Below, one piece after another: positions 9,321-62,782 of a stretch of 64,000 bases of DNA. The stretch is from a virus: IMG/VR virus record IMGVR_UViG_3300009110_000335; one strand, written 5' to 3'. The notes under the pieces were generated by a model. That model ran no database searches. It was not told the DNA's origin and saw nothing but the letters and a program-made list of their open reading frames with translations. The first letter of the stretch is position 1. The number at the start of each line of letters is the position of its first letter. A program made the position numbers and the translations under genes.

Positions 9321-9354
9321 GTGAACTTTATACGATAGTATGCCCTACTGATTA

Positions 9355-33600: not shown

Positions 33601-36600
33601 GCATTGTCGAGTGAGGCTAAAGAGATAATGGGTGACAAATTAAAGAACGTGCGATTAGAAATGACCGCAAAAGAGGAACAAACACGGGGTCTAACAAAAA
33701 TGTTGAAGGACATGGAAGATCAAGTGAAACGTGATAGAAAACAGGCATTAAAAGAAACTGGTTCTGGAACAAGAGGTAGGTTTGCAGATATAATAAAAGA
33801 TGCCGATGTGGAAGGTCACGACAAATCAAACACCAGAAGTGCAATGATAGTCATAACAAAGAAAGACGGAACAGATGCAAAATACACAAAAGATGGCAGA
33901 GTGATACTTGGTGATGGTAAAACTGGTGACTCAAAAAGTCCTTTACTACGTTTGATATCAAGATACTCAAAAGATGCAAAGGACAAGGAAGTCTTACTTG
34001 ATAAAGATTCAGACGGAATGCCAATCCAACTAACTAACAAATTCGGTGATCCTGTGATGGTAAGACCAGAAAAAACCGACACCAAACCAAGAGTTATTGT
34101 GATAAGTGATCCAAGTGACCCAGCACAAATAATGGAGGTGAAGAGATTGCTACATGAACAGAATGTGAGATACCTTGGTGTCGTTGGTGATAATCTTGAT
34201 GATTATTCTATTAGAAAACAAGTTAGTAAAAACATGAGGAAGACAGAATTGGATCAGGGTGTGTTCCTACCAGACCCAGTATATAGTGTAAAAGGAATGA
34301 TGGGTCAACTATTCGGCACTAATATAGATAGTTCTAAACTTGGAATGAGTTCAGTTCGTGACGGATTAATCGACATGGTGGAAACCAACAAGAATAAGGA
34401 AATACTTCCACAGAAGCTAAAACAGGTGGAAGATAAGATACGTGCTGCAGAATTAAAGAAAGAAAGCCGTGACAAAGAGTGGATTCCACGTACTGAGAAT
34501 TTATTATTTGAAGGATTTGAAAATTCATTCAAAGACAAGTATAGTGGAATTAATAGAAACAAACTACTAGGTACTGAGAGAGTACTTGAACTGATAAAGA
34601 AACGTCTTATCAAAGACGAAGGTAAACAGAGAGAGAAGGTAAACAAAGAAGTAACAAAACAGCAAATTGACTTTGTACGCCAGAATGATCCTACCACCAT
34701 ATCTAACTTTGTGAGATCTGAACAAGAAGTATTGATTGCAGGTAATAAGGCAAATGACATACTTAGTGCTGCAATGAAAGGAGACACCAGTCAAAACGAT
34801 GTGAATAAATTCTTATGGTCACCTACAGGTGACCCAGGAACACCAGGAACATCGATTGTAAAAGTCAACACGTATTTGAAATTTGTACCAACACTTGACA
34901 CACCAAAACCAGAAGTAGGTATAATGTCAAGGATACAGAGAAGGGTGTTAGGTACACAAGAAAAACAGAAAGCAAAAAGAGACGAGACGTTCTATAGTGC
35001 ACTTGACGATATGACAGCACAGGATCCAAACACAGGGGAATTTACATCATTAGGAACGCTTAGGAGTAGTACTAGTGAAACGTGGGATACTAGCGAAGGA
35101 TTGAAAGCTTCACTGACAAAAGAATATCTTATTTCACTACACAATACAAACAACCCAAAAGACCAAGTAAAGAGCTGGAACCAATTAATCATGAAGACAC
35201 GTGGTTCTGATTACAACAGGATATTGGGCTGGGTAGTAGATGGTTATACGCTAAAGTCAGAAAAACTACCAAGTAGTATAGTAGGAACCACCAAGACAAG
35301 ACCAACCTCGTTGTCTGGTGATGAAGTGTTTTTCAAACTGTTGAATAAAGAAGCAATAGGTCCTGAATCACAAACAAAATCAATTGAGAAGGCAAGTAAT
35401 GTATTCCAACCGGCTGTGAGTGATTTGAGTATGACTGATTGGTGGAAAGGACCAACCAAGGGTGATAAGGTGGTTTACAATATTTTGAAACGCGGTGGTC
35501 ATAGAATAAAGTCACGACTTCCATTATATGCAAATAAAAAGAATGTTGGAGGATGGGTTGGTCAATTAAACAGACCTCTAATACCAGAAAAGGTACAAAG
35601 AAGGTTGGATCTATTCTCATTCATTGAAAGGGGTAAACCAAAACAAACAGTAGAGCCTGATCCTCAAAGACCTATGGAACAAGCAAAGCTTACAGGACAG
35701 TACCCTGTAGAGAGAGAAAGTTTGTTTGAGGGACAAGTGCAAGCCGTGGGATCTATTGTGTCTACACCTAAAGGACAAAAACTACAAGCACCGATGATAC
35801 GTGAAGAGTTATTCACAAAGGAATATGCAGACGCACCTGAATTGGCAAAGGACGTTGAAGCTATATTCAAAGCTGAAAGAAAACAAAATGTACCAGACTG
35901 GTTTGTTACCACAAGTAATACAGATGAAGCAACATTAAATTCATGGATTAGAGAACGGGACACAACAAAGAGACTGTATGACCTAACCCGTCAAGATATA
36001 GATGAGAAGGTAAAAGAGAAAGAAAAGATAACACGTGCTGCATCCGGTCTTATTGGCAAGTCAGATGATATTCTATCAAAAGAAGATTTACAAAAACTAA
36101 ACCAAGCTGAGACTCAGCTTGGTAAAATAGCAACAGAGATCAACAACCTCAAATCAACTAACAAAACACACTTGAGCCAAATAGATGAACTTACTAAGAA
36201 GATTAAACTTAGTGTCCAACCAATACCTGGTGTACCAGGTGCCACAGTGACAGATGAGTTTGGATTTGCTTCAAGAGTGAGAAATGTGTTTGGCTCTATA
36301 ACTTCACCATCAACACCAAGACTTCCAACATGGGCTGGTAAAAAATCAGTGTCAGAACCATTTGAGGTGGTTGTTGATTATGATGTCCCAGCACAACAAA
36401 TACCAGGTCGACAGGAAGTAACAAAAGAAACAAGGCAAGTTATAAGAAAGTATCTAGGCACTGGATCTGATTTCAATATAGAGATTGAACAGGTCGGAAC
36501 AACATTTGCACCAAAAGGAAAGAAAGTAGCATTTGGTAGTGGTGAGTTTCCATTCCAAATAACAGACGCGGGTGGGGTTAAATCAATTGTTGATGCTGTA

Positions 36601-37512
36601 AAGGGTGCAACCGGAACAACAGAAAGCTTCACTAAAAGAGAGACGTTCACACCAAAGACAGGTGGTGGTGCATATGGTTATGACACAAGTGGTGGATTCA
36701 TAGGTGATACAGCACAACAGACAACACAGAAACAAAAGACAAAAACCACAGCAGAGACAAAACAGGATCAAACAATGACAGAAGCGATGGAAAAATCCAC
36801 AAAGGCAAAAGCCCCTGATACAAAAGACATTCAACGTTCAATTGGAATGGGCGTTTACGGAATGGAGTATTCACAATATGTCAACCAATTCCTAAGTGGA
36901 CCACCAACAGCAGAGGCACAAGAACAAAAACCTGTGCAAAGGATCGACACCACATTACCAACAATACGTATGAATTTAGATAGAGCAATAACCAAGAATG
37001 TCAAACAACCAGCAGTAAGAATATCAAACATGATGCAAGGTGTAGTTGCAGGTGTTAATTTCAATACAGCCAAAAAACTAAGCCAAGCAAGTGCCATGAT
37101 AACTGCAACAACACAGTCATATTTCCCAACACAAGCAATGGCAAGTCAAACAGATTTGGAGAATTTGAGATACACTGAACAGCTACAAACTAGACTTAAG
37201 ATTAAACCAACATTCAAACAAAGTCCTGATATGAGACTTGCTCTTGAACCAAGAGGACTACAATTACCAAAACCAAAACCTGCAGTGATACCAAGAACAA
37301 TACCAATACAACCAGCATTAATGTTCCCATTACCACCGTTTGATGGTGGGGCACCTAAAAGACAAAGACCAAAACCAAAGAAGAGTAAAAAGAAAAAGAT
37401 TGGTTGGCAAGTACCTGATGTGTGGTTTGGCTACTACAGTCCTGATGAGTATACAGTGTTTGGTGGTCAAGAACCAAAAAAATTAAAAAAACAGAATAAG
37501 AGGTTGGACTAG
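21667..37512 (+). CDS. Giant 5281-aa protein (putative virion ejection/internal protein) with macro-like and SLOG (Mo-cofactor-carrier-like) domains
   Basis: Uninterrupted 15.8-kb ORF (ATG alternative at 21676). SLOG motifs VRSGGQRGVD..G..TA..AGLKTGG..P.GW, RTDLNVQQSDAT and LARNNVQELNVAGTRASK at about 28410-28820. Extensive coiled coil; Pro/Lys-rich C-terminus. Confidence 0.85.
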   Translation: MREMAKRTRFQAGRSTQPQVNTATAKMGTVAIEQPRPTPASLKDAAAPQLGYLSSSGYVDVSRDGKRIDPESEEGKAIQAIYSRQFEETIDNAAQLERFLAVTRGQASIEDTLLNPGTTNRYEGSNIKPNREQLIRTYFEERGVPLTEQFSNVNLRPVKYTAARERARLATNTGIEMGDLRDLLPGTSAYLKSGESIPADRIRTGEIYARRDNFLRQAGEIKDVVDGEVGTVARDPSYNQVVSTGLIPGTPGMLSGLSVAQGADRTLQNAALFIAGGVAPVTGLLAGIGGVFKPKAKGGAIPEKVPDPLYRPSATEEGREQVEEEISDDVARDWTMDPIIEGGPDDYRVIDGSILQRAVEKDGAFGFLVGTGEVFKRLGKSLVVPEEQLGQLGYYAATQTPIEEWRIKESALDLAINPILEPMAPYLAPYADIDASWDDVGGSLARFGGASATTASNIGIGMATPELRDAYFAEAGRVGGESWEKFQKYPLYYTGTALGEIPLALVGAGQVGFLARAGVKITKAALVADAGMKGSRVTAKANVLAGQLKNVDSTIESLSKKHNFNEKDFNSLIKDRNSILKDIIDFEHVDVNRTMKATEVDNMFKNADGAYKEGVSSNTIDRVNQLKAVDRKLNDQFTVPNELKNAIKTREDILDRTMKLVDSTDPSLRNDPIAIQNAVLKKKKLIEDTAEEKANTLYQKLVTQPGVNYGAWKKRQALRLGNLITLGGKSTLGGRLDPKMFATPRSQYRAALSQERKQGFGLARFEPRTWISGLAFVPRLTRAFAEVGSPSSPEELAAYPNPLNLFGKSQLEADVGRMGAGTVPVEYTPMMNAWGGMLRGLGVQNVQIKARLIQDKVQAMIKSPKTIDTETTKIEFDVTNQIVFQPGRIGPASTQKPDTTISMTMPADQPIGFQKSFGIGVAGIDQPMQITSDVTLGQYRSPGFTFTSTEDLLTQYPSFEAISNFYKQTPPSSPFGALPKGLSKTEPTDIIGAPFRVEGSFTAGRKMTTDEVIDLGEELPIVATPTSQVTRNYEKNLNKIQEKIAKLDSDEIKVWGDVSKINVLTSGISWSSVKNDIGLNKFFADVTPNVKTNLNTIEKGKVTDYQTRITQLKNVIETNEKNNMDTTSLRRELKDLYIEVDKIQYDNPYPTYDNYIDSIGRQTESLMPGMGEIGERAINEIKDFAGKGKLKKAFGELRNTEELIRKERGAIKKINPADEKKLRRSQDKLLLLERKATAQRENLAREMKDNAGFLGAEVQFAAISDDKIFTKNPLTDPTVLLTKPQAQKLHEIATKRIALEGEKEKIVMDFSPQKVAFTFTRDVPFDAMSASLTDIVVTKSGKGRYIIDAKAGSDGVIPTLKGEFLDFMEQAGGMTPGQKKKNAKELQKAALGNKEIADTGNTLFRFITPNRYDNTAKHDKVTHGVIDTDNRILGDSNLQKQYGLEPRAIKVGDRSPTKEEVTTGVYTKKTKVPIWAYATDGNGNVIFDVVQPYTAADEVDYLKFITGKGFDDKANLSEFGEQTKTITKDRVANITPSGEKVIEKFEYNVSTFANQFKMTPPKSQDAYAQNIEVLEKGLETTMGKVGIVDDRLKTVQKGISDYEKAYAIAKDIMKNDTIDIEYELNRLADPTAMASVTSRNIKAKEQNISDIKDQIREVEDQINAKYVEIGESHVTMSTAIKPVATKKFLLFNNDYPISGMGQWDYMDSDIFTRVAQNTPTNPIDNPEKIFNQRQYFELIIDALESPEASTKRLNKLWKDVDVKADTDVEKLNLVKEVSMKYLDDVKGEDKMKEIRKEIKEIESEKGRTYTEKIRAVKQYVLESAKDDRDQLKAKLDEAFSFAGATPDQKIQIFNARAKTILDQTLGTVKTTKNEKGEIDIVTDDFMDAFVKNNNLIADAEELMSTRKILKQNLVNEQQDLTEIKFDHRTLQKLATQIKRDGVGRHPLDPIIAPIELDTLPKLFGKYVNISSDRVEWIRGTGKGKIAVTEEIQELFPGGNVPDEITAPVQFGMGGGGDDIMENLSRGSMPYTGKGRPPVGKKLVLAGTVMVDIQLGTVTVQRKLPIYALPGTNQYLAKGKDLRFTMPETQNLTTMKPDQVLVVETGLKEGLKAKKTKKDPETGEKKYTPQQAALELFNASQGRSEGFTGSRTAGQNVYLLPTATGVRQGPEIDIDMYVRNLTDQMDQNPNREFLLTDGGVINASNFINHFGDFVFEKNVIIPRSFFEKLNPQQQAKYAATHTKDVLYTGLKTVRSGGQRGVDQVGVETAKDAGLKTGGVMPAGWRVEGGNAEAWGRKYGFTQSSDSSFTTRTDLNVQQSDATVYYGAVDANGNPSSPGGIRTADAASRYAKPFIVNPDPETLAEFLARNNVQELNVAGTRASKQSTSLIGGKTPNEYAKESLGGAIKLTKPAVMGEADVPDRFTAYLPMEVARQVQGDIVRVNSDVFKDDIIRSQAVVPALAMKASSQYMQSVRQISNNLKKQMEDLGTKKDKINKEIEVNDFNDQQVRAIVHLVNQYQTGSKTIKAMPGVKERYKGMYDALENFKNKEFYKQIENIAKGKDYNLKKFFTPKSEVPISEIRTNIDFLKDLLLKAKETKGLQGKIVKKHTVNPTENSGVIVAREILPNLRDKAKIYEVGLGGGVLELGAKWRRNEWFEKNAESSYAVVSKETVDQTIASLEVAKNKAGSTGAMDELQKKIDELTGMSKQLGGEQKYGDKSIIADNYNALTSDVSIVVLPQKNVRTDGSSVHFDYNTFIKKLETYEAQDSMLESLKKDLALLEKENKTLAPTSSKYLNNQGKIILLQDKIESETEILVRYAGQVRNSDPTGVHGTGQYNKNLHREWNEELGKYVDTKYKGWVTNKDGNNQTRHTIEYMLKDKERRDKLFVLTPDTDHAELEAFLKMNNPKRINIVGVAGPIQRTKGGEPIGPVNTRQAEQHFQTNQLINKHIFGEAIKVGTDSKGKPIYEQVDSGTEVIAHLKNVEKLEDVKLTLGEKQVGEKGTLEFISKLRSAITANERVLQKAENQITSDLNIISGSTHTNISKANRKKVETYSKQPDVKDDNMFETVEKLYGVNVDRRTNNVTTDILAEIKKKINSETPSVSTFSSTQLRNYDRLKRQYNQAVLAIAMNRNIIDNETVSTMKIATDNEKTFSTMLREIESINPDTSDINVEFGKYVDIDNPDEIKRLATNAGIDPKNLNQKINAWLREYTGSNIGGLFKEKTKKVIEKESMEAEAVFAKGEGAQVAKLVDQQLDYGLTENQLDFVRNMVGKTDFEADAYMNPNVITKNVEEITDVEWNNLQFLASKNLVKFNNKGTTAEYQDSYRMRAYLNPTKPTGKQTQPMYVDPLNPQATLSAKEVEERYGVKQTRDIAEFLTRTKIVEEQFDGSYVVNQAKVKGIGKFLGDTETIREKYKTSISKQRPTMDKDDTDLEVIQAIISGDKQRGIAKLDKDITAIDREIAEQMRLLDADKADINAGQVARAEGKVNELFELHAEALARGDKGVADKIKKEVSSTFGDAFGGTNIWNQWQSKQLTSSVKAVIALDYREKIVQPSRSVLEYIIQGGKMSDLKDTNVLKGLKDPKGNPLITGLDEIIRTGTDKRLLKKWEKAHEDKKLSEVEWAKQEHEKMSVLDDTFGDYANASITNGTLTLETRILPRSNVERKLKNLKIEIEKIKENDIKNHTRINKTVSDTLEKKQNEYNRLKTGREEWERIIDGQYNERAVYDVEYTKPDPEFDDGSPYVRDAEMTFDTDDVTRNEYFISQVYGKRIKNIDMGGTDRDTLRRFFGDSVRSFKGKVYEELTPWDESFMRDILTQVKKEKTKKVKDLSNDIGRYTTPPQSQKTKQAKLSIINSMSDVDRLKDSFEVMQKKSGTIPVSDINVGSKIEQVFVLNPSKRDSTSAIVIEEFANKQRFWRSEDADVVKKGQPKKGKKDPKLKQRVGKKDDVDPFEEAENKLIDDRRVKVYGSTLRPEGTERALSSEAKEIMGDKLKNVRLEMTAKEEQTRGLTKMLKDMEDQVKRDRKQALKETGSGTRGRFADIIKDADVEGHDKSNTRSAMIVITKKDGTDAKYTKDGRVILGDGKTGDSKSPLLRLISRYSKDAKDKEVLLDKDSDGMPIQLTNKFGDPVMVRPEKTDTKPRVIVISDPSDPAQIMEVKRLLHEQNVRYLGVVGDNLDDYSIRKQVSKNMRKTELDQGVFLPDPVYSVKGMMGQLFGTNIDSSKLGMSSVRDGLIDMVETNKNKEILPQKLKQVEDKIRAAELKKESRDKEWIPRTENLLFEGFENSFKDKYSGINRNKLLGTERVLELIKKRLIKDEGKQREKVNKEVTKQQIDFVRQNDPTTISNFVRSEQEVLIAGNKANDILSAAMKGDTSQNDVNKFLWSPTGDPGTPGTSIVKVNTYLKFVPTLDTPKPEVGIMSRIQRRVLGTQEKQKAKRDETFYSALDDMTAQDPNTGEFTSLGTLRSSTSETWDTSEGLKASLTKEYLISLHNTNNPKDQVKSWNQLIMKTRGSDYNRILGWVVDGYTLKSEKLPSSIVGTTKTRPTSLSGDEVFFKLLNKEAIGPESQTKSIEKASNVFQPAVSDLSMTDWWKGPTKGDKVVYNILKRGGHRIKSRLPLYANKKNVGGWVGQLNRPLIPEKVQRRLDLFSFIERGKPKQTVEPDPQRPMEQAKLTGQYPVERESLFEGQVQAVGSIVSTPKGQKLQAPMIREELFTKEYADAPELAKDVEAIFKAERKQNVPDWFVTTSNTDEATLNSWIRERDTTKRLYDLTRQDIDEKVKEKEKITRAASGLIGKSDDILSKEDLQKLNQAETQLGKIATEINNLKSTNKTHLSQIDELTKKIKLSVQPIPGVPGATVTDEFGFASRVRNVFGSITSPSTPRLPTWAGKKSVSEPFEVVVDYDVPAQQIPGRQEVTKETRQVIRKYLGTGSDFNIEIEQVGTTFAPKGKKVAFGSGEFPFQITDAGGVKSIVDAVKGATGTTESFTKRETFTPKTGGGAYGYDTSGGFIGDTAQQTTQKQKTKTTAETKQDQTMTEAMEKSTKAKAPDTKDIQRSIGMGVYGMEYSQYVNQFLSGPPTAEAQEQKPVQRIDTTLPTIRMNLDRAITKNVKQPAVRISNMMQGVVAGVNFNTAKKLSQASAMITATTQSYFPTQAMASQTDLENLRYTEQLQTRLKIKPTFKQSPDMRLALEPRGLQLPKPKPAVIPRTIPIQPALMFPLPPFDGGAPKRQRPKPKKSKKKKIGWQVPDVWFGYYSPDEYTVFGGQEPKKLKKQNKRLD

Positions 37513-46561: not shown

Positions 46562-47139
46562 AAATAAAAGATAATGAAGGTAAACCAATTAGGGTAGACG
46601 GCAGTGATGATATTCCTGACGATACTGTTGTGGCTTTTAATCCAGAGACAGGTGAACAATGGAATGATATCACTGACGCAAATCAGATTGGAATATGTTT
46701 TTTCAAGGACTTGAGAGACCAGTCAAAATATGACAAGGAATTGTGGAAAAAATTAATGCAAGTTGGTTTAAAACTTGAATCGAATACAAAGAATCTCGAA
46801 CATGAATTACCATCACCATTCATAGATACGATCTTACAGACTCTAGCAATATATGGTGCTGACGGTAAAATGATTGACAGAATGATACATGATTTGACAG
46901 TTGCAAAATATAGAATATTTGACTGGCTAGGAATGTGTCTAACAGGAAGGCTAGAAGTAGATCCTTCGCACGGTGCATACAAATGTATAGTGAGTATGGT
47001 AAAACTCTACATTGCACAGAAACATGTGGGTGGCTGGGCATGGTGGCTACGAGGTCATGATATGTTTGTACAGAAACCAGGATATTGCAAAGACTGTATT
47101 GATTCGTATGAGGATTGGATGAAGGAGCAATTAGCATAA
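46540..47139 (+). CDS. Hypothetical protein
   Basis: 199-aa ORF with C-terminal H...CKDC. Confidence 0.65.
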   Translation: MEKWEMVKIKDNEGKPIRVDGSDDIPDDTVVAFNPETGEQWNDITDANQIGICFFKDLRDQSKYDKELWKKLMQVGLKLESNTKNLEHELPSPFIDTILQTLAIYGADGKMIDRMIHDLTVAKYRIFDWLGMCLTGRLEVDPSHGAYKCIVSMVKLYIAQKHVGGWAWWLRGHDMFVQKPGYCKDCIDSYEDWMKEQLA

Positions 47140-47381
47140 TGTTACAATGTGATATATGTAAAAAACATAATTCGATATTCATGTGTCCTGAAGAATATAA
47201 AACAGGATTAAAAGAACATCAAAAATTCCATGACCCAAAAATGCAAGATGAATTAAAGAAAGAACGCAATGAAGTGAAACAAGGTGGATACAAATCAGTA
47301 CTGGCTGATGTAGATATAGAAAAAGTATATGGATTAGGAACAATAAATTGGATAAAAGTACCAGAGGAGGAACCGAAATGA
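47139..47381 (+). CDS. C2H2-like Zn-finger protein
   Basis: MLQCDIC...LKEHQKFH; TAATG overlap. Confidence 0.6.
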   Translation: MLQCDICKKHNSIFMCPEEYKTGLKEHQKFHDPKMQDELKKERNEVKQGGYKSVLADVDIEKVYGLGTINWIKVPEEEPK

Positions 47382-47983
47382 GTGCAATTAGTTTATTTGA
47401 ACGTATGAGGGAAAATCGACCGACATTCGTTTACTTTAAGGAATTACAAAATATTGACTATCCAAAATTATTTACCTCAATGAAATCTGCCAAACGAGGT
47501 CAAGACGAAATTGACATATTTGCAAATATATGTATGAAATTAAAACAAGAGGCAATGACAACACCTGCGATAGCAGAAATGTTTCCACTGATATCACTTG
47601 CAGTAGAAAAAGATGAGAAAGTATGGTTCTTTGAACTGATGGGTGTAGAAGGGCAACAAAGTCCTATGGAATGGGTTGAACCTCTCACTAGAGTGTTTAA
47701 TCCGAATATGTTTGTGGTACTTGCAGAATCATGGTATATTACTGAAAAGGCACCTAAAGGAAAAAGTTCCTTGAACGATTATGCACCTGGTGATATATCC
47801 AAAAGTAAAGATAGACATGAATGTCTTATTGTAGATGGAAGAACACGCAACGGAGATAAATCACATGTGATATTAGAAGTCAAACGTGGTAAGAATAATA
47901 ATATAAGATTCAAAGAAATTTATACCGATAAAGTCAAAGAGGGAAAATTTAATGCAAGATATGATATGGATCCCGAAAAATGA
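47378..47983 (+). CDS. Hypothetical protein
   Basis: ATG after GAGGAGGAACCGAA (SD); 201 aa. Confidence 0.7.
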   Translation: MSAISLFERMRENRPTFVYFKELQNIDYPKLFTSMKSAKRGQDEIDIFANICMKLKQEAMTTPAIAEMFPLISLAVEKDEKVWFFELMGVEGQQSPMEWVEPLTRVFNPNMFVVLAESWYITEKAPKGKSSLNDYAPGDISKSKDRHECLIVDGRTRNGDKSHVILEVKRGKNNNIRFKEIYTDKVKEGKFNARYDMDPEK

Positions 47984-48016
47984 TGTCCTCTATTTTTTCA
48001 TGGGCAGTGATTAGTT

Positions 48017-48988
48017 TTGGGTAAACCTTCAGTGAAAGTCGGCGATAAGGATCCGCAAGATATTCCATTAGAACTTCCTATGAGTATTATGAGAGTTCTT
48101 GTTGAGATGTATTACGACTTCCAAAAGACAAGAATAGAAGCGGGAAACCGTGCCTTAATGAATGCCGAAAGAAATAGCATTACTGAGGAAGACCTTGAGA
48201 AATATGGTGTCAAAGACATCTTTGATGCGGCAAAGAAATTTGAAGGCGCAATACAGAAACGTATCGAAGTTGACCTTCCTAACAAAGCAATTTTTAAGAA
48301 TTATCTAGATAGTATCCAAGGAATTGGACCAATACTTACTGCAGGCTGTATGGCATATGTAGAAGATATTGAAAGATTCGATAAGGTTAGTGCACTATGG
48401 CAATATTCTGGATATGGTCAAAACACATTCTGTCCTGACTGTTCCACAGATAAGACGAAAGCATGGACATATGTTGACGTTGAATATGAGGGAGCCGATG
48501 GTAAAACAAAGAAAGTGAAACGATTACGTCCATCTAAAACATGTAACAAATGTGGTCATGACACAGAGAATGCAAGACAGCAAAACTCAGCAGGATTTCA
48601 AAGTAACTGGAATCCAAAGATCAAGGTGTTATTCTGGAAGGCAGCAACTAGTTTCATGAAACAACAATCTGCAAAAAGCGGATATAGAAAATTGTATGAA
48701 CAATACAAACGTGAACTAAGGACAAAATTCCCATCAAAACTTAAAGATAAAAACGGTAAAACAAAATATAACGATGGTCATATCAACAACATGGCTCTGA
48801 GAAAGGTCTCAAAGGTATTCATGCAACATGTATGGATAGTCTGGAGACAGATCGATGGTCACACAATATCTAAACCATATGGTGCGACTGGAGCCAATCA
48901 CACCTACTTGGAGCCATTTGTTGATAAACCAAACAAAGAATTTGATAAAATTTTGAAGGAGATTCAAAAGAGTCTAAAGGGGGTGTAA
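48017..48988 (+). CDS. tasA: Nop-domain (IS110/Nop5/Prp31 superfamily) RNA-guided DNA-binding protein, TasA-like, no RuvC, with Zn-ribbon insertion
   Basis: Coiled-coil LVEMYYDFQKTRIEAGNR and HhH YLDSIQGIGPILTAG..AYVEDIERFDKVSALWQYSGY. Insertion CPDC...CNKC, then NWNPKIK..FWK.A.SFMK...YRKLYEQYK...GHINNMALRKVSKVFMQHVWIVWR. No N-terminal DEDD domain. Adjacent 36-nt dual-spacer array. Confidence 0.85.
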   Translation: MGKPSVKVGDKDPQDIPLELPMSIMRVLVEMYYDFQKTRIEAGNRALMNAERNSITEEDLEKYGVKDIFDAAKKFEGAIQKRIEVDLPNKAIFKNYLDSIQGIGPILTAGCMAYVEDIERFDKVSALWQYSGYGQNTFCPDCSTDKTKAWTYVDVEYEGADGKTKKVKRLRPSKTCNKCGHDTENARQQNSAGFQSNWNPKIKVLFWKAATSFMKQQSAKSGYRKLYEQYKRELRTKFPSKLKDKNGKTKYNDGHINNMALRKVSKVFMQHVWIVWRQIDGHTISKPYGATGANHTYLEPFVDKPNKEFDKILKEIQKSLKGV

Positions 48989-49143
48989 TGATGGCAATAA
49001 ATTATGATAGACAAGAAGAGTTTCTCGAAGAACTGATTGATAGTCTACATTCTATGAAAGCAAGTGCAAGAAGCGAAGAACTATTTGAAGACATAGATGA
49101 TATTATCAGCGAAGTCAAAGAGAAAATGAACGAACTGAAATAA
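48988..49143 (+). CDS. 51-aa acidic helical microprotein between TasA and array
   Basis: MMAINYDRQEEFLEELIDSLHSMKASARSEELFEDIDDIISEVKEKMNELK; TAATG overlap with the tasA-like gene. Confidence 0.7.
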   Translation: MMAINYDRQEEFLEELIDSLHSMKASARSEELFEDIDDIISEVKEKMNELK

Positions 49144-49155
49144 CCGAAGGTCGCG

Positions 49156-49400
49156 TGAAACCCAAAATGGGTGTGTGAATCAGCAATCATATGAACCCCA
49201 TAAAGCACTTATGAATCAAAGTATAGCTGAACCCCATGGTATGAATATGAATCAAAGTAGTTTTAGAATCCCAGAGAATCCATATGAATCATCGGCATAG
49301 TTAAACCCAGAAAGAAATTATGAATCCGAACCATGTTGAATCCCAAGATATGAGTATGAATCAAAACGGTCCTGAAAACCAAGAGGTATAGTATGAGTCA
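49156..49400 (+). ncRNA. TIGR dual-spacer guide-RNA array A (7 units, 36-nt period)
   Basis: Edge repeats TGAA(A/C/T)CCCA-like at 49156, 49192, 49228, 49264, 49301, 49337 and 49373. Loop repeats TATGAATCA-like at 49174, 49210, 49246, 49283, 49319, 49355 and 49392. Unique 9-nt spacers lie between them. Confidence 0.9.
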
Positions 49401-49497
49401 AATAATAAAATTGAAATGTAGCAGATGTGCAACATACGCAATGTGTGAAAACAATTGTGAATGTTCATGTCATAAAATAGAATGGAGTAAAAAATAA
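49393..49497 (+). CDS. 34-aa Cys-rich microprotein
   Basis: MSQIIKLKCSRCATYAMCENNCECSCHKIEWSKK. It starts inside the last loop repeat, and its stop overlaps the next ATG. Confidence 0.55.
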   Translation: MSQIIKLKCSRCATYAMCENNCECSCHKIEWSKK

Positions 49498-49823
49498 TGG
49501 CATTAGAAATACAAGTCAGGGTAGAAGAACATGGAACCAACCGTCATAAGGATATCATAATACCTGTCTCTAACAAAGAGTTTGAAATGGTGTCTAGACT
49601 TGGAGATATAGAAAATGGCAAACCTGCCTATGAACTAGTAATATCTCTAATAGGTGATTTACAGAAAGAAGTTGAGGTAGAACAGCAACTTGACATTAAC
49701 CACCCTGAAAAATACTTTTTCAAAATAAATCTTGTGAGATGTGATAGATGTGAAGAACGATGTAATTGCGATAATAATGACACATGGAATGAACGCCCTT
49801 CAAAAGGTAACGGGGAATGGTAA
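49497..49823 (+). CDS. Hypothetical protein with C-terminal Cys cluster
   Basis: CDRCEERCNC motif. Confidence 0.65.
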   Translation: MALEIQVRVEEHGTNRHKDIIIPVSNKEFEMVSRLGDIENGKPAYELVISLIGDLQKEVEVEQQLDINHPEKYFFKINLVRCDRCEERCNCDNNDTWNERPSKGNGEW

Positions 49824-49908
49824 ATTATAATGAATGATGTAGACAAAGACTTTGAATTTGTTAGCCAAAAGTCAAAGGCAAAAAGCATATGGTGCGCGGA
49901 TATAGTAT

Positions 49909-50460
49909 ATGGTAAAAAAAGATAAGAAATCAATAGACGATGTCTTTGATTTACTGGATAAAAAACTCGGTGATTCGAATGACATTAATGATATCCAAAG
50001 ACTAACTGCCGCAGCCATGACTATTGGTGTACTCGCTGGTGTAGAATCTGTCTTGGGCAATGTCAATGTTGACAGAAAAAATTCAGAAAAAGACGTACTT
50101 GATATGTTAAAAAATCCAAGTAAAAGGCAGAGTACTGCACTAAAAATATTTCATGGTGATCCACTTAACATACTTGCATGTATAAGCCATAAAGGATTAC
50201 GAAAATACTTTGATATGATTAGAGCAGAAAGATTGACATCTATATGTCGTAATAATGAAGAAATAAAACCACAGGTTGAAAAAATGTTAAAATTTGCATT
50301 AACAAAATTAGACGTACCATCTACATGTATCGCTGAACAAGATATAGATTTTTCAGATAAAGAACACCCAAGAACAAAAGGCTCAAAAAAAGATTTTGGA
50401 GATTTACTAAAGAAACATTGGGACAACATGAGCGACACCAATGACGAGAAACCAGAGTAA
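49909..50460 (+). CDS. Hypothetical protein
   Basis: 183-aa ORF. Confidence 0.65.
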   Translation: MVKKDKKSIDDVFDLLDKKLGDSNDINDIQRLTAAAMTIGVLAGVESVLGNVNVDRKNSEKDVLDMLKNPSKRQSTALKIFHGDPLNILACISHKGLRKYFDMIRAERLTSICRNNEEIKPQVEKMLKFALTKLDVPSTCIAEQDIDFSDKEHPRTKGSKKDFGDLLKKHWDNMSDTNDEKPE

Positions 50461-50861: not shown

Positions 50862-51899
50862 ATGGTGAAAGCAAAATTGAAAGACACAAAAAAAATCGAT
50901 GATGATGAGGTAGAACTCACACCTGAAGACCAACAGGTAGAGACTGCCAAAGCATCTGCTAGTACAAAAGCAGAGGAACAACAAATGCTTGATGCAATAG
51001 CATCAGGAAATTCAATAGAAGTGCTACCGGTGAATCTAGAGAGTTTTAGAATAAAACACTCTATAAGATATGTACCGTTTCACAATGAGTTCGATGTCCT
51101 GAAATCATACTACAACGCAGAACGTGGTAGAGATCACCCATTGCTATTTGTTGGACCTGCAGGAGTAGGAAAGACTGCATCAATACCAGCCTATAACAAG
51201 GAACACGGTATTGGTCTAATGCAGTTTGATTGTTCTGAAGGAACAAAAAGACAAGACCTAATGGGTAGATATATCATTTTTGATGGTGAAGTAAAATTCA
51301 GCCTAGGTGTACTACCAATGTCAATGGTATGTGCAAACGTACAAAAGGAGTTTACACTAGTACTGGAGGAATTAAATGCATTACTTCCTGCAATACAAAA
51401 AAGTGTTAACCAATTCCTTGATTGGCGTAAGCATTGTTTTGTTCCAGAAATAGACCGTATTTACAGAGTCAACCCTGATTGTAAATTACATGTCTGTGCA
51501 ACCATGAACCCAAGCACATATGCTGGAACTCATGAGTTAACACCTGACTTGGAAGATAGATTCACAGTGATTGATGTACCATATCCAACCGAGGAAATGG
51601 AACAAGATATCATTGAACATGAGGGAATCGATGAACAACTATTCAACGGACTGTTGAGTGTTGCAACCGAGACAAGAGCGGGCTATGCAAACAATGACTT
51701 AGAGGTTGCCTTATCCCCAAGAACCTTACAAAAATTCTGTGATGTGTATAGAACATATTCAGCAAATGAGGAACTAGAAGGAAAAGCATTAAAACTTGCC
51801 GCAGAGCATTGTTTACTGTCAAAGTACAAAGTACCAAGTCAGAAAGATAGTATTAGAAAAAGAGTGTATAGAACTCTTGGAATACAGGAGTCTGACTAA
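50862..51899 (+). CDS. MoxR-family (CbbQ/NirQ/NorQ-like) AAA+ ATPase
   Basis: Walker A GPAGVGKT, Walker B LVLEELN, sensor ATMNP and DRF Arg-finger; C-terminal lid LSPRTL. Confidence 0.9.
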   Translation: MVKAKLKDTKKIDDDEVELTPEDQQVETAKASASTKAEEQQMLDAIASGNSIEVLPVNLESFRIKHSIRYVPFHNEFDVLKSYYNAERGRDHPLLFVGPAGVGKTASIPAYNKEHGIGLMQFDCSEGTKRQDLMGRYIIFDGEVKFSLGVLPMSMVCANVQKEFTLVLEELNALLPAIQKSVNQFLDWRKHCFVPEIDRIYRVNPDCKLHVCATMNPSTYAGTHELTPDLEDRFTVIDVPYPTEEMEQDIIEHEGIDEQLFNGLLSVATETRAGYANNDLEVALSPRTLQKFCDVYRTYSANEELEGKALKLAAEHCLLSKYKVPSQKDSIRKRVYRTLGIQESD

Positions 51900-53968
51900 T
51901 GAGCGGATCGAAATTCAAATCTTTTTTTGGATTTGGATACTTTGATAATGTCGCAAAGACGCATGACGCACCTATTATCAATCCGATGACAGGTGAAGCG
52001 TATGACTTTTCTAAGATTGATGATACAACAATAGCTGATATGGAGAATATGAAAAAACTCACAAAGACATATTCTAGAATAACCAATAAAGATATTATTC
52101 CAAACTTTACAAATATGCCATTACCAAAAGAATTGGACGCCCAAGCATCAAAATCATATGCCAAAGAACATGATGCATTGACAATGGTTGGTGACAATAA
52201 ATACTGGGTACGACTTAATATGGCAAATGACGAGTATCTAACAAATGATGCTAAACTTGAACATAACATATCACATGTTCTATATAATTCGCCATTCCCA
52301 TTAGCATACAAACAGATTAAAAAATGGACTGGTGGTGCACAAGGAACTGAAAAGGGCGTTCTTACTGCAGCAGCAAAAACAATATTTGGTATTCTGGAAG
52401 ACCACAGAGTAAATCATGCGTGGTCACAGAACAGTGTTGGATTAGAGATGGATATCAATAATTGTAAATCTAGACTTCGTGGAGATATGGATAATAAGAA
52501 AGTACAGGATCCTATCACAGCATTATGGTATGCATATAATGGTAAGTTCAAAGAACTTGTAGGAACACCATTTGATGGTATGATTGACATGTTCAAGAAA
52601 GTTGAATTTACTGATGAGAGAGGATCACTTGCATTGGCAAAAGACTTCTATTTCTCAACCTTCAGACCTTGGTTCAAATATCAACAGGAACAGCAAAAGC
52701 AAGAGCCACAAGGCGGAAGTGGAGGACAAGGTAAAGGACAAGGTAAAGGACAAGGTAAAGGACAAGGTAAAGGACAAGGTAAAGGACAAGGACAAGGCGG
52801 TGCACCAAGAAAAGGAAGTAATATTACAGAAAGTATGAAAAGTGCATTAAAAACATTGGAAGATATCGATAATTCCCCATTCTCACAGACAGGAAACTGG
52901 CAAGGTGCAGACGGTCACGACACACCAGGTAGTGACAAAATTGAGAAATGGCTTAACAAGAATGTCCCAGCAGAAGATAAAAAATCAGGTGGTGAGTCCC
53001 CAGAAGATAATGACCCAAAACAAAGTGTAGACGAAGATGGAACACATGGTGGCGGTTCAGGTAAAAGTTGGACAAATCTAAGCGATGAAGAACTTAATGA
53101 ACTAAAGACATCTGGTAAGAAAAGAATATCGGAAGTAAGAAAGAAACTACGAAAGCATGGGCTTATACGTGATCCAACATTAAAAGAACAAGAAATAAAT
53201 CTTGACTCAGAAAGATTTGACATTATTGAAAGACCCTTAACAGACCAACCATTCAAGGTTGATTATGCATTAGCACATGCACTTGAAAACCAATGGAGAC
53301 GTATTAGAGGAATGACAAAACAAATGCTTGATGAAGACGGTGATGAATTAGACGTTGATGTGTATATTCAAAACATACCTGCAGTAGTCAAAGATAATGA
53401 TATGTGGTATGAGGAAAGTCCTGACACAGGATTTCATGTATTAATATCAGCAGATACCAGTGGATCAATGAGTGGTTATCCATTGAAATGTTTACGCGAT
53501 ACTGCTGCAACTTTCAAGGCAAGTTTAAACAAACTACCAAATGTAAAAGTGTCAATGTTATCATGGGGTGGAGGACGTAAAACCGGAATAACCATACATA
53601 AAACAATGGACGATATCAATCATTTCGAATGTGCAAGTGGATACAATGGAACACCTGAAAAGGAAGCATTGTGGTATAGTAAGACATGGCTTGCACAAAA
53701 ACGAGAAGCTGGTAAATTATTATTATTCTGTTCAGATATGGGATTTAGTAAAGAGGCTGCCCAAGATGAAATAAAGAAATCAAGAGAACTTGGGATTAAT
53801 GTATTTGGTGTTATGTTCACAAATGATAATGTAAATATACGAAAAGATTGTGACGAATTATTTGGTGTTGATCAATATGCAATTCTAGATGACACTGATA
53901 AAGCAAATACCCATCTAGTTAATTCAATCTCAAAATATGTAACAAGGCATATGTTAGTTAAACATTAA
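51899..53968 (+). CDS. VWA-domain partner protein of MoxR ATPase (CobT/NorD-like)
   Basis: MIDAS motif ISADTSGSM, GTP and LLLFCSD; N-terminal HNISHVLY...ILEDHRVN; Gly/Gln/Lys linker. Confidence 0.85.
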   Translation: MSGSKFKSFFGFGYFDNVAKTHDAPIINPMTGEAYDFSKIDDTTIADMENMKKLTKTYSRITNKDIIPNFTNMPLPKELDAQASKSYAKEHDALTMVGDNKYWVRLNMANDEYLTNDAKLEHNISHVLYNSPFPLAYKQIKKWTGGAQGTEKGVLTAAAKTIFGILEDHRVNHAWSQNSVGLEMDINNCKSRLRGDMDNKKVQDPITALWYAYNGKFKELVGTPFDGMIDMFKKVEFTDERGSLALAKDFYFSTFRPWFKYQQEQQKQEPQGGSGGQGKGQGKGQGKGQGKGQGKGQGQGGAPRKGSNITESMKSALKTLEDIDNSPFSQTGNWQGADGHDTPGSDKIEKWLNKNVPAEDKKSGGESPEDNDPKQSVDEDGTHGGGSGKSWTNLSDEELNELKTSGKKRISEVRKKLRKHGLIRDPTLKEQEINLDSERFDIIERPLTDQPFKVDYALAHALENQWRRIRGMTKQMLDEDGDELDVDVYIQNIPAVVKDNDMWYEESPDTGFHVLISADTSGSMSGYPLKCLRDTAATFKASLNKLPNVKVSMLSWGGGRKTGITIHKTMDDINHFECASGYNGTPEKEALWYSKTWLAQKREAGKLLLFCSDMGFSKEAAQDEIKKSRELGINVFGVMFTNDNVNIRKDCDELFGVDQYAILDDTDKANTHLVNSISKYVTRHMLVKH
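52724..52795 (+). repeat. 12-bp tandem repeat (GGACAAGGTAAA)x5 plus one variant, encoding (GQGK)n linker
   Basis: Perfect units at 52724, 52736, 52748, 52760 and 52772. Confidence 0.95.
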
Positions 53969-57819: not shown

Positions 57820-58406
57820 ACGCCCCACAGAGAACATCGATAATTAACTGGATGTGGGATATACCACAGAGTAGAAACAAAGCATATCTATTTTCAGCAA
57901 TAATATTTCTTAGTGTATTTACCATAGGCTCTGAAATTAATATGACAGAGCAAGAAGCACAAATGCTTGTGGGTGAATTTGAATCACAGTTTATAGGAAT
58001 AGGATGGGAAGATATTTTTCTACATAATCTTGGATTATCACTTGGTATGTTTGTACCATTTATAGGATTTATCTGGGCACCTACGACAGCACTTATGACA
58101 GGAATTGCATTTTCTGCATACACAATAATTAGTCCTGACGTAATAAACTTCAGTCCATTGTGGTTGTTTGTAACTCCATTTGGAATGATGGAATTAGCTG
58201 CATATTCAATTGCGATGGGTAGTTCAATCCAGCTTACTGCAGCAATAGTCAATATGAGAAAAACGAAACAAGTACCCGTGATGAAAATATTTGTTAAAAC
58301 ATTATTGATTAGATTGTCAACAATTACAATTCTGTTAGGAATCGGTGGATTTATAGAGTATGAGATACTTGAAAATATGGAAGAAATAATGGGGGTGTTT
58401 CAATGA
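57816..58406 (+). CDS. Stage II sporulation protein M (SpoIIM/DUF95) family membrane protein
   Basis: IFLHNLGLSLGMFVPFIG, PFGMMELAAY and GGFIEY motifs. Confidence 0.8.
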   Translation: MNAPQRTSIINWMWDIPQSRNKAYLFSAIIFLSVFTIGSEINMTEQEAQMLVGEFESQFIGIGWEDIFLHNLGLSLGMFVPFIGFIWAPTTALMTGIAFSAYTIISPDVINFSPLWLFVTPFGMMELAAYSIAMGSSIQLTAAIVNMRKTKQVPVMKIFVKTLLIRLSTITILLGIGGFIEYEILENMEEIMGVFQ

Positions 58407-59302
58407 TAAATAGTATTGGTAAAAAGTGTGGTTACTGCGGTAAAGATAACCCGATACAAGCTCAACATGAAGTGATCTGTGGTGGCTGTGGTGTTGTAAT
58501 AGGAACTATAGATGCAGATATGTCAGCAGAGTTCAACAGTGATATAAACAATAAACGAACTGGGGCTGCATCAACATTAACATTGCATGATAGAGGACTT
58601 TCAACTACAATGGAATCGGCTAACAAAGACTACACAGGTAAATCATTAAACACTCAGAATCGTACAACTATGAAAAGATTGAGGGTTTGGAATAGTAGAA
58701 GTATACAACATAAAAACGACTCAAGAAACCTCAGTATTGCATTACGTGCAATCAATAACATAATTGACAAAACCTCACTTCCTGAAAATGTAGGTGAACA
58801 TTCTGCATTGATATACAGACGAGCACTTGAAAAGAAATTAATTCGAGGAAGATCCGTCGGCATGCTTGCAGTATCATGTGTATATGCAGCATGCAGGGAA
58901 CTTGGTATACATAGGACTCTGAAAGAAATGGCTATTGTGTCAGATGTTAAAAGAAAAGATATTGCAAGATGTTTCAGATTAATATCACGTGAACTTGAAT
59001 TACAACCAATGGTGGTGTCACCAGAATCATGTGTGACAAAGGTCGCTTCATTATGTAATGTCAACTCAAAGGTTAGTTCTATGGCTGTTAAATTAATACG
59101 AATGGCTCATGAGAATGAATCTACCGCAGGAAAGGATCCTGTCGGTTTAGCAGCAGCAGCGATCTACCTAGCAGCAGTTCATAACAATGTAAACATCACA
59201 CAACGTAACATTGCTCTTAGGGCAGAAATAACTGAAGTGACAATACGTAATCGTGCAAAAGGACTAAGAGAGATGCTAAATGAAAAAGGCAAAACTAGAT
59301 AA
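58403..59302 (+). CDS. tfb: Archaeal transcription initiation factor IIB (TFB)
   Basis: Zn ribbon CGYC...CGGCG, B-reader LHDRGLST and linker RLRVWNSR. Two cyclin folds (LIRGRS..ML...VYAACR; GKDPVGLAAAAIYLA) and the HTH TQRNIA..AEITEVTIRNR. Closest in style to thaumarchaeal TFBs. Confidence 0.95.
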   Translation: MINSIGKKCGYCGKDNPIQAQHEVICGGCGVVIGTIDADMSAEFNSDINNKRTGAASTLTLHDRGLSTTMESANKDYTGKSLNTQNRTTMKRLRVWNSRSIQHKNDSRNLSIALRAINNIIDKTSLPENVGEHSALIYRRALEKKLIRGRSVGMLAVSCVYAACRELGIHRTLKEMAIVSDVKRKDIARCFRLISRELELQPMVVSPESCVTKVASLCNVNSKVSSMAVKLIRMAHENESTAGKDPVGLAAAAIYLAAVHNNVNITQRNIALRAEITEVTIRNRAKGLREMLNEKGKTR

Positions 59303-62495: not shown

Positions 62496-62782
62496 CATTA
62501 AAAGAACAGAAAAGAGATTATCGCCAAAAGAACAGAGAAAAATTAAAAGAACAGAAAAGAGATTATCGCCAAAAGAACAGAGAAAAATTAAAAGAAAAGA
62601 GAAGAGAATATTACCAAAAGAACCCTGAAAGGATAAAAGAACGACAAAGAAAGTATAACCAAAAGAACAGAGAAAAATTAAAAGAACGACAAAGAAAGTA
62701 TAACCAAAAGAACAAAGAAAGAATAAGAAAACAGAAAAGAGAGAATTACCAGAAGAATAAAGAAAAATTAAAAGAGGAGTAA
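62492..62782 (+). CDS. Basic 15-aa repeat protein (KEQKRDYRQKNREKL)x~6
   Basis: 45-nt tandem repeat; the first two units are identical (starts 62497 and 62542). Confidence 0.7.
   Translation: MTLKEQKRDYRQKNREKLKEQKRDYRQKNREKLKEKRREYYQKNPERIKERQRKYNQKNREKLKERQRKYNQKNKERIRKQKRENYQKNKEKLKEE

What the first reader, a model, noticed from the sequence alone, without database searches (positions are those of the whole stretch)
48400..48620. Zn-ribbon insertion in the Tas Nop domain where IS110 has its catalytic serine loop
Seen: immediately after the conserved LWQYSGY, the protein carries an approximately 50-aa insert, CPDC-(x~33)-CNKC, before NWNPKIK. There is no N-terminal DEDD/RuvC domain and no obvious HNH. 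Established: IS110 recombinases carry the catalytic Ser wedge in this part of the Tnp domain. Inference: this is a nuclease-free variant whose Zn ribbon may stabilise the unwound target or recruit host transcription machinery, making it a possible RNA-guided transcription regulator.
Basis: inference. Interest (0 to 1): 0.6.

Follow-up and report, generated by a model that had tools for sequence, protein, structure and literature searches.

The report
Zinc-ribbon wedge in a viral TasA
A nuclease-free RNA-guided DNA-binding protein (TasA of a TIGR-Tas system) in an archaeal-virus-like contig carries a conserved four-cysteine, probably zinc-binding, hairpin module in the loop that related proteins use to pry target DNA strands apart. 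The module is real and I found no published description, but it is a fairly common variation on a known system.

Summary
ORF 48017-48988 (323 aa) is a Tas protein: TaTasR 9MTY E 5.6e-30, with best fold matches TasR, TasH, then IS621. It has no nuclease domain. Two 36-nt dual-repeat TIGR arrays lie at 49138-49417 and 9177-9328.

Residues 135-187 (48419-48577) are a 53-aa insertion where TaTasR has 6 residues. The site lies inside the Tas 'wedge loop', which corresponds to the IS621 S241 loop. C139/C142/C176/C179 are invariant in 22 homologues of 39-94% identity. The segment models confidently as knuckle, Lys/Arg-rich beta-hairpin, knuckle. Its few weak structural and Pfam matches are mostly to entries I recognise as zinc ribbons or knuckles. 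No HNH signature or conserved serine is present.

Best reading: a structural zinc-ribbon enlargement of the strand-separating wedge in a dual-repeat TasA that binds DNA without cutting it.

Transcriptional repression by other TasAs was reported in a 2026 preprint. Recruitment of transcription machinery has no support here.

Cys-rich wedge inserts are common. About half of the 137 nearest family representatives with aligned flanks carry one. This scan also flagged a Zn-ribbon TasA earlier on other DNA. The four Tas papers I read never mention zinc.

Verdict: new variant of a known kind, of modest interest.

The parts
48017..48988 (+). tasA gene: 323-aa nuclease-free TIGR-associated Nop-domain protein (TTG start)
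   Evidence: phmmer against PDB: TaTasR 9MTY E 5.6e-30, SpTasH E 9.7e-10. Profile search: 1.6e-44. Foldseek: 9MTY 1.4e-10, TasH, then IS621/ISCro4. Pfam Transposase_20 5.8e-6. AF2 model pLDDT 88, pTM 0.84.
48065..48283 (+). Coiled-coil dimerisation helices (about residues 17-89)
   Evidence: AF2 helices 22-52 and 65-89. Predicted homodimer interface on residues 17-82.
48302..48418 (+). Helix-hairpin-helix part of the Nop/Tnp C-terminal domain, ending in LWQYSGYG (residues 96-134)
   Evidence: Pfam Transposase_20 covers residues 96-132. Aligns to TaTasR up to residue 212 and to IS621 up to residue 237.
48419..48577 (+). Wedge-loop insertion: 53-aa four-cysteine zinc-ribbon-like module (residues 135-187)
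   Evidence: Unaligned against TaTasR and SpTasH. Conserved in 22 homologues. pLDDT 91-94 in the full model and 88.6 when folded alone, all-beta.
48431..48442 (+). First CxxC knuckle (C139-P-D-C142)
   Evidence: Both Cys invariant.
48470..48526 (+). Long beta-hairpin between the knuckles, with a Lys/Arg-rich second strand (residues 152-170; K168 invariant)
   Evidence: AF2 strands 152-158 and 164-170. Family consensus GKxKKAKRLKP, with K36 of alignment A2 invariant. The insert has 11 K+R against 8 D+E.
48542..48553 (+). Second CxxC knuckle (C176-N-K-C179)
   Evidence: Both Cys invariant.
48878..48901 (+). Y288...H295, the counterpart of the SpTasH Y289/H296 pre-tigRNA processing dyad
   Evidence: Residue-by-residue alignment to SpTasH. 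Y288 is conserved in at least 90% of homologues and H295 is invariant. The dyad is defined in PMC13421893.
49138..49417 (+). TIGR array 1: seven 36-nt units. Loop repeat UGAAnCCCA and edge repeat UAUGAAUCA alternate with 9-nt spacers; the terminal repeats are degenerate.
   Evidence: The repeats begin with UG and end in CCA/UCA, like the box D and box C motifs in PMC12045711.
9177..9328 (+). TIGR array 2: four units with the same repeats, 39 kb upstream of tasA, followed by a hairpin
   Evidence: Pattern search and sequence reading.

Best explanation
[quoted passage not shown] By homology it should form a coiled-coil dimer. It should cut its own 36-nt tigRNAs out of the two arrays with the retained Tyr/His dyad. 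It should then bind an 18-bp DNA site, with the two 9-nt spacers pairing to opposite strands, without cleaving it. The flagged segment is a 53-residue enlargement of the 'wedge loop'. In solved Tas complexes this loop passes between the two spacers and separates each RNA-paired DNA strand from its displaced partner. In IS110 recombinases the same loop carries the catalytic serine. Here two CxxC knuckles most likely chelate one structural Zn2+ and clamp the base of a long, Lys/Arg-rich beta-hairpin. I infer that this rigid basic hairpin acts as a bigger wedge or strand clamp. It would contact the displaced strand or flanking duplex and so stabilise the unwound, bound state of an effector whose only output is occupancy, that is a roadblock or repression. 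Shown here: family membership, absence of a nuclease, position of the insert, conservation of the four Cys, and the predicted fold. Inferred: zinc binding, nucleic-acid contact, and repression.
For: Tas membership. No nuclease domain. Insert position: it lies within TaTasR 212-219, inside the wedge G210-K230. The wedge separates the strands (PMC12045711) and helps close the substrate groove in SpTasH (PMC13421893). Conservation: four invariant Cys, an invariant K168 and a conserved basic strand. Fold: confident all-beta model with knuckle-hairpin-knuckle order. Structural matches: of 48,161 PDB chains only 6 reach Z>=2. From my own knowledge of those entries, at least four are Cys-rich metal- or zinc-binding modules: LpCopA metal-binding domain 8OVL (Z 3.2, rmsd 1.6 A over 34 residues), MetRS 1RQG, eIF2gamma 1S0U and PhlB 5M3K. 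Pfam: every family listed as matching several of the 22 insert segments is sub-threshold, most are zinc ribbons, and none is HNH. Guides: 17 of 20 loci whose Tas carries two CxxC knuckles in the wedge have ordinary 36-nt arrays, against 50 of 55 for compact-wedge Tas, so the insert does not come with an altered guide. Processing dyad Y288/H295 is retained. Homodimer model through residues 17-82: score 0.68, best of 3 controls 0.00. That mark was reached by 20 of 30 proteins solved as pairs of one chain and 1 of 23 solved as single chains. The runs agree in at least 92% of contacts and the partner pLDDT is at least 85. Like complexes (9MTY, TasH) are solved, so this pass may reflect memory of those structures. 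Other TasA proteins bind DNA and repress transcription without cleavage (preprint 10.64898/2026.09.09.750476).
Against: No metal or nucleic acid was modelled at the insert, and I could not read coordinates, so the Cys geometry and the direction of the hairpin relative to DNA are unverified. Structural matches to solved zinc ribbons are weak (Z<=3.2). Foldseek and the ESM Atlas gave nothing significant. No Pfam zinc-ribbon family reaches its threshold. No spacer target was found in the window or in 1.28 Mb of related loci, so the biological target, and hence repression, is unknown. Many functional Tas proteins, including TaTasR and SpTasH, manage with a 6-14-residue wedge. FpTasA has a Cys-free wedge. 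A large wedge is therefore not required for binding.
Confidence: 0.6

Rival explanations
1. The zinc ribbon is an RNA-side adaptation. It would grip the loop or edge repeat of the tigRNA, or help position pre-tigRNA for the Tyr/His processing site, and would not contact DNA.
For: In stem-loop Tas proteins, clade-specific insertions co-vary with tigRNA features and contact the RNA. The wedge loop itself sandwiches box C bases (preprint).
Against: Arrays of this clade are canonical 36-nt dual repeats with 9-nt spacers and the same UG...CCA repeats as compact-wedge relatives. There is no extra RNA element for the insert to accommodate.
Confidence: 0.15
2. The zinc ribbon is a protein-recruitment surface. 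It would resemble a TFB/TFIIB- or TFS-like ribbon that docks on archaeal RNA polymerase or on a viral factor, making TasA a guide-directed transcription factor and not a passive roadblock.
For: The contig encodes its own TFB homologue (Pfam TFIIB 4.7e-32), so the host has archaeal transcription. 8 of 22 insert segments give sub-threshold hits to the TFIIB zinc-binding family (best E 0.004). One weak Atlas row is a Zn_ribbon_TFIIB cluster (TM 0.37).
Against: These hits are below threshold and are typical cross-hits among CxxC...CxxC ribbons. The same module occurs in many viral contigs of unknown host. No neighbouring gene is conserved with tasA. The insert is not in the predicted dimer interface, and no partner is known.
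Confidence: 0.08
3. The four cysteines do not bind metal (for example disulfides, or conservation for another reason), and the insert is a neutral lineage-specific loop expansion.
For: The wedge is an insertion hot spot with many unrelated fillings, including Cys-free ones.
Against: All four Cys stay invariant at 39% identity while nearly everything between them varies. Two CxxC pairs flanking a beta-hairpin are the classical zinc-ribbon signature. Cytoplasmic viral proteins rarely rely on disulfides (established knowledge).
Confidence: 0.07
4. The insert is a degenerate or cryptic HNH-type (beta-beta-alpha-metal) nuclease framed by two CxxC pairs, so the protein would still nick or cut DNA.
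For: Zinc-stabilised HNH domains also have CxxC...(about 35 aa)...CxxC spacing (my own knowledge). The query has a His two residues after the second knuckle.
Against: There is no conserved His or Asn between the knuckles. H181 is not conserved. The model has no alpha-helix after the second knuckle. No HNH family appears among the Pfam hits of any of the 22 segments, even at E<=10.
Confidence: 0.02

Closest known systems
Dual-repeat TIGR-TasA (FpTasA, Flavonifractor plautii; Faure et al. 2025, PMC12045711)
   Same: Solo Nop-domain effector with a coiled coil and no nuclease. Adjacent array of two alternating 9-nt repeats and 9-nt spacers processed to 36-nt tigRNAs.
   Different: The FpTasA wedge is about 33 residues with no cysteine (supplement text). 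This protein has a 53-residue 4-Cys module, sits in an archaeal-virus-like contig, and has a second array 39 kb away.
TaTasR (PDB 9MTY) and SpTasH (PDB 9W04, 21KL)
   Same: Best sequence and fold matches. Same coiled coil, helix-hairpin-helix and C-terminal helices. Same Y/H dyad position as SpTasH.
   Different: They carry an N-terminal RuvC or HNH nuclease and a short wedge loop (6-9 residues in the aligned gap). This protein has no nuclease and has the zinc-ribbon wedge.
Wedge and other Nop-core insertions catalogued for stem-loop Tas proteins (preprint 10.64898/2026.09.09.750476)
   Same: The same structural position ('wedge insertion') is recognised there as a variable element. TasA is shown to be an RNA-guided repressor.
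   Different: That text says dual-repeat Tas proteins keep a compact Nop core, and it never mentions zinc or cysteines. Here the enlarged wedge is Cys-rich and is tied to canonical dual-repeat arrays.
IS110-family bridge recombinases (IS621, PDB 8WT6)
   Same: Homologous coiled coil plus Tnp/Nop domain. The insert occupies the loop equivalent to the S241 loop, which threads through the guide-RNA loop to reach DNA.
   Different: No DEDD RuvC domain and no conserved serine in the loop. It uses a guide array, not a bridge RNA.

Membership tests
TIGR-Tas effector (Tas protein) | Coiled coil plus Nop/Tnp-like C-terminal domain homologous to solved Tas proteins | tested here: met
   9MTY E 5.6e-30 with the single sequence and 1.6e-44 with the profile. 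Foldseek top hits are TasR and TasH.
TIGR-Tas effector (Tas protein) | Associated TIGR array: two alternating 8-12-nt repeats starting with UG and ending in CCA, 9-nt spacers, 36-nt unit | tested here: met
   Seven units at 49138-49417 and four at 9177-9328. 17 of 20 loci with two CxxC knuckles in the wedge have 36-nt arrays.
TIGR-Tas effector (Tas protein) | Dimerisation through the coiled coil | tested here: met
   Prediction only. Score 0.68, best of 3 controls 0.00; the mark was reached by 20 of 30 proteins solved as pairs of one chain and 1 of 23 solved as single chains. Runs agree in at least 92% of contacts, partner pLDDT at least 85, interface residues 17-82. Like complexes are solved, so the pass may reflect likeness only.
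TIGR-Tas effector (Tas protein) | Y/H dyad for autonomous pre-tigRNA processing (dual-repeat systems) | tested here: met
   Y288 and H295 align to SpTasH Y289 and H296 and are conserved. Activity was not tested.
TIGR-Tas effector (Tas protein) | tigRNA loading and tandem-spacer DNA binding | not testable with these tools
   Needs RNP purification, small-RNA sequencing and EMSA.
TasA subtype | No RuvC or HNH nuclease domain | tested here: met
   About 16-21 residues precede the coiled coil. No nuclease family in Pfam. Flanking ORFs have no nuclease hits.
Zinc ribbon | Two CxxC knuckles with four conserved ligands | tested here: met
   C139, C142, C176 and C179 are invariant in 23 sequences.
Zinc ribbon | Knuckle / beta-hairpin / knuckle / beta-strand topology | tested here: met
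   AF2 strands 135-139, 152-158, 164-170 and 184-187 at pLDDT about 90. This is a model only.
Zinc ribbon | Significant similarity to solved or curated zinc ribbons | tested here: inconclusive
   VIA-align Z<=3.2; at least four of the six chains with Z>=2 are Cys-rich metal/zinc modules by my knowledge of the entries. Foldseek and Atlas gave nothing significant. Pfam ribbon families are all below cut-off.
Zinc ribbon | Zn2+ binding | not testable with these tools
   Needs metal analysis of purified protein.
IS110 bridge recombinase | N-terminal DEDD RuvC-like domain | tested here: not met
   Absent.
IS110 bridge recombinase | Catalytic serine (S241-G242 in IS621) in the alpha3-alpha4 loop | tested here: not met
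   No conserved Ser at or near the aligned position. Residue 131 varies among S, C, A, T and G, and the zinc ribbon occupies the loop.
HNH nuclease | Conserved catalytic His and Asn/His on a beta-beta-alpha fold | tested here: not met
   No conserved His or Asn between the knuckles, no helix after the second knuckle, and no HNH Pfam hit at E<=10.

The most novel reading that the evidence does not exclude
The zinc-ribbon wedge is a docking module for the archaeal transcription apparatus (RNA polymerase, TFB or TFS-like contacts) or for a viral factor. The virus would then use its tigRNAs to place a guide-directed transcription factor, not a mere roadblock, at chosen promoters. This would fit a genome that also encodes its own TFB and keeps some guide pairs unchanged between diverged relatives.
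Probability: 0.07. Interest if true: 0.75.

Novelty: new variant of a known kind. Interest (0 to 1): 0.36.

Why it matters
TIGR-Tas systems were described only in 2025 and are being developed as very small PAM-free DNA-targeting tools. The wedge loop is the element that opens the target duplex. A rigid, metal-stabilised, basic wedge that arose repeatedly in nuclease-free effectors points to a natural way of tuning how tightly or how long the complex holds unwound DNA. That is relevant for TasA-based repressors and activators. It also qualifies the published generalisation that dual-repeat Tas proteins have a compact, invariant Nop core. The IS110 catalytic loop, the Tas wedge and this zinc ribbon occupy one structural site, which shows how a single loop was repurposed. 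The feature is frequent in metagenomic Tas proteins and is probably visible in existing structure-prediction catalogues, so it refines current understanding and does not overturn it.

Tried and rejected
1. Nucleotide search of 47000-50000 against cultured phages found no match. tblastn of the protein found one weak hit, Microcystis phage Mvi-JY20 at 24.5% identity. No whole genome is held for the window.

2. Foldseek of the isolated insert against PDB gave nothing at E<=0.001. The ESM Atlas shape search gave TM below 0.5 throughout.

3. HNH reading: rejected.

4. A tigRNA embedded in the wedge-coding DNA, as reported for BlTasA: the array-motif search with up to 2 mismatches found no unit inside 48400-48620.

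5. Natural targets. The 11 guide pairs of the window were searched in the window in both opposite-strand arrangements, with two control arrangements. Nothing came below 3 mismatches apart from the arrays themselves. 104 and then 191 guide pairs from related arrays were searched against up to 1.28 Mb of window plus loci. There were no exact hits. At 1 mismatch there were 4 real against 2 control hits, and at 2 mismatches 46 against 30, which is not convincing. I did not scan the large public collections for 18-mers, because by my rough estimate of their size an exact 18-mer would be expected there by chance.

6. A conserved partner gene: tblastn of seven neighbouring ORFs against eight related loci found only the AAA_5 ATPase in L008, which is probably viral backbone synteny. 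The 201-aa upstream ORF and the 51-aa downstream ORF have no Pfam or PHROG family.

7. Whether Cys-rich wedges also occur in nuclease-bearing Tas proteins: 13 such proteins have N-terminal extensions of 90 residues or more. Pfam on ten of them, and PDB sequence searches on two, did not identify those extensions. This is unresolved.

8. I could not read model coordinates, so Cys-Cys distances and the orientation of the hairpin relative to the DNA path were not measured.

Full report
What is there. Its only Pfam family above threshold is Transposase_20, the IS110 helix-hairpin-helix region, over residues 96-132. Against solved structures the best sequence match is TaTasR, PDB 9MTY (E 5.6e-30; 1.6e-44 with a profile of 23 homologues), followed by SpTasH. 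An AlphaFold2 model (pLDDT 88, pTM 0.84) matches TasR, then TasH, then the IS621/ISCro4 bridge recombinases by Foldseek. The alignments start at query residue 17 opposite TaTasR residue 109, so the RuvC domain of TasR (or the HNH domain of TasH) has no counterpart. This is a solo-Nop TasA.

Its guides. Directly downstream, at 49138-49417, lie seven 36-nt units. UGAAnCCCA and UAUGAAUCA alternate with 9-nt variable segments. A second array of four units with the same repeats, ending in a hairpin, lies at 9177-9328, 39 kb upstream. Both repeats start with UG and end in CCA/UCA, which are the box D and box C anchors defined for tigRNAs (PMC12045711). From the degenerate terminal repeats here and in relatives I assign UGAAnCCCA as the loop repeat and UAUGAAUCA as the edge repeat. 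Y288 and H295 align with the SpTasH Y289/H296 pre-tigRNA processing dyad and are conserved. A homodimer prediction places the interface on coiled-coil residues 17-82. The score is 0.68 and the best of 3 controls is 0.00. That mark was reached by 20 of 30 proteins solved as pairs of one chain and 1 of 23 solved as single chains. The runs agree in at least 92% of contacts and the partner pLDDT is at least 85. Similar complexes are solved, so this may only reflect likeness. The contig encodes a TFB homologue (Pfam TFIIB 4.7e-32), a Mom-like protein, a DNA methyltransferase and a 5281-aa ORF, and all genes lie on one strand. It therefore looks like a large archaeal virus. One relative, L008, comes from a marine metagenome.

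The insert. Query residues 135-187 face six residues of TaTasR (213-218) and a similarly short stretch of SpTasH. The preprint 10.64898/2026.09.09.750476 defines the TaTasR wedge as G210-K230, so the insert is an expansion of the wedge loop. The conserved arms of the wedge (G-x-N before the insert, Q...G after it) are retained. In TaTasR this loop separates the RNA-paired DNA strand from its displaced partner (PMC12045711). In SpTasH it helps close the substrate groove (PMC13421893). A profile alignment puts IS621 residue 237 at the last residue before the insert. IS621 S241 lies in the loop between Tnp helices alpha3 and alpha4 that threads through the bridge-RNA loops (PMC11208158). No conserved serine is present here.

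Is it a zinc ribbon? The four Cys are invariant in 22 homologues of 39-94% identity, while most positions between them vary. Also conserved are K168 and a basic strand with consensus GKxKKAKRLKP. The segment is modelled with pLDDT 91-94 in context and 88.6 in isolation. The order is strand, knuckle, long beta-hairpin, knuckle, strand. An exhaustive structural comparison with 48,161 PDB chains gave only six with Z>=2. From my own knowledge of those entries, at least four are Cys-rich metal- or zinc-binding modules: LpCopA metal-binding domain (Z 3.2, rmsd 1.6 A over 34 residues), MetRS, eIF2gamma and PhlB. These scores are weak, and Foldseek and the ESM Atlas found nothing significant. Scanning the 22 insert segments against Pfam gave only sub-threshold hits. 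Most were to zinc-ribbon families (DZR in 11 members, Zn_Ribbon_TF in 8, NOB1 ribbon best E 2.7e-4), and none was HNH. I therefore call it zinc-ribbon-like. The ligand pattern and topology tests are met, similarity to known ribbons is inconclusive, and metal binding is untested. There is no conserved His or Asn between the knuckles, H181 is not conserved, and no helix follows the second knuckle.

How common is it? A profile search of 1.84 billion representatives found 5,461 relatives. Of the best 150, 137 have both flanks aligned. Among those, 51 have a compact wedge (20 residues or fewer), 18 have two CxxC pairs, 32 have four or more Cys in another spacing (mostly CxxC...CxC around a helical segment), 20 have three Cys plus His, and 16 are long with few Cys. 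The profile contained the insert, so these proportions are biased upward, and a few 'long' cases are misalignments. On a FastTree of the Nop core without the insert columns, the query's type forms one group of 14 at support 82, which is not strong. Other Cys-rich wedges are scattered among compact ones. This suggests a hot spot with repeated gains or losses. In 87 related loci plus the window, 20 carry two CxxC knuckles in the wedge, and 17 of these have 36-nt arrays, against 50 of 55 compact-wedge loci. Loci with the CxxC...CxC type (L005) and the Cys3-His type (L006) also have 36-nt arrays. The module therefore does not come with a changed guide architecture, which argues against an RNA-accommodation role. 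It also sits uneasily with the preprint's statement that dual-repeat Tas proteins keep a compact Nop core. FpTasA, the characterised dual-repeat TasA, has a Cys-free wedge of about 33 residues.

Function. TasA proteins lack nucleases. Two 2026 preprints show that other TasAs bind DNA in a guide-dependent way and can repress transcription or, fused to VPR, activate it. By homology this protein should be an RNA-guided DNA binder. I infer that the zinc-clamped basic hairpin is an enlarged wedge or strand clamp that stabilises the unwound target. I found no target for any guide in the window or in 1.28 Mb of related loci, so what it binds in nature is open. Nothing supports recruitment of transcription machinery beyond weak, generic ribbon similarities.

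Novelty. The words zinc, cysteine and ribbon do not occur in the repression preprint. Zinc does not occur in the 2025 Science paper or its held supplements, in the TasA/TasH cryo-EM preprint, or in the NAR TasH paper. The wedge insertion as a variable segment is catalogued, however. I therefore rate this a new variant of a known kind: real, conserved, mechanistically suggestive, and not exceptional.

Noticed in passing
window 9177-9328 (hairpin 9342-9367): A second four-unit TIGR array with the same repeats lies 39 kb upstream of the only tas gene in the window. It is followed by a GCCCTAC/GTAGGGC hairpin and sits just after a Mom-like gene (7976-8605) and a DNA methyltransferase gene (8583-9149).
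   Followed up: partly
window 49255-49291 vs L001 7225-7260; also L009/L011/L019, L009/L025, L015/L018: Guide pairs are conserved between diverged relatives. Identical spacer A+B pairs occur in loci whose Tas proteins are only 64-81% identical. The window and L001 (56% identical Tas) share spacer B GAGAATCCA, with spacer A differing at 2 of 9 positions. This suggests selection on particular guides and therefore conserved targets.
   Followed up: partly
window 48988-49143: A 51-aa strongly acidic ORF overlaps the tasA stop codon and ends at the start of array 1. It has no Pfam family and no homologue in eight related loci. It may be a real small protein or just the array leader.
   Followed up: partly
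L004 6867-7313; L005 1565-1831: Public gene calls annotate TIGR arrays as protein-coding genes (a 148-aa and an 88-aa 'product'). Array DNA is therefore present in protein databases as spurious ORFs.
   Followed up: no
window 58403-59302: A virus-encoded TFB/TFIIB homologue (Pfam TFIIB, E 4.7e-32) indicates an archaeal host.
   Followed up: partly
window 21667-37512: A single 5281-aa ORF. An upstream 1383-aa ORF (2-4153) carries at least five fibronectin type III repeats, and a 555-aa ORF carries an HYR domain. These are probably structural or adhesion proteins of the virion.
   Followed up: no
window 50862-53968 and L008 6444-9431: An AAA_5 (MoxR-like) ATPase followed by a large protein lies a few genes downstream of tasA, both in the window and in marine contig L008 (42% identity). 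This is probably backbone synteny of one viral lineage.
   Followed up: partly
window 62497-62775 and 52723-52791: A 45-nt tandem repeat (6.2 copies, A/G-rich) and a perfect 12-nt repeat (5.8 copies) inside ORF 51899-53968.
   Followed up: no
P0031, P0048 and relatives (loci L005, L006): At least two other Cys-rich wedge fillings exist in dual-repeat Tas proteins. One is a roughly 75-aa CxxC...helix...CxC type and the other a roughly 55-aa Cys3-His type. Each has long 36-nt arrays (21 and 31 units).
   Followed up: partly
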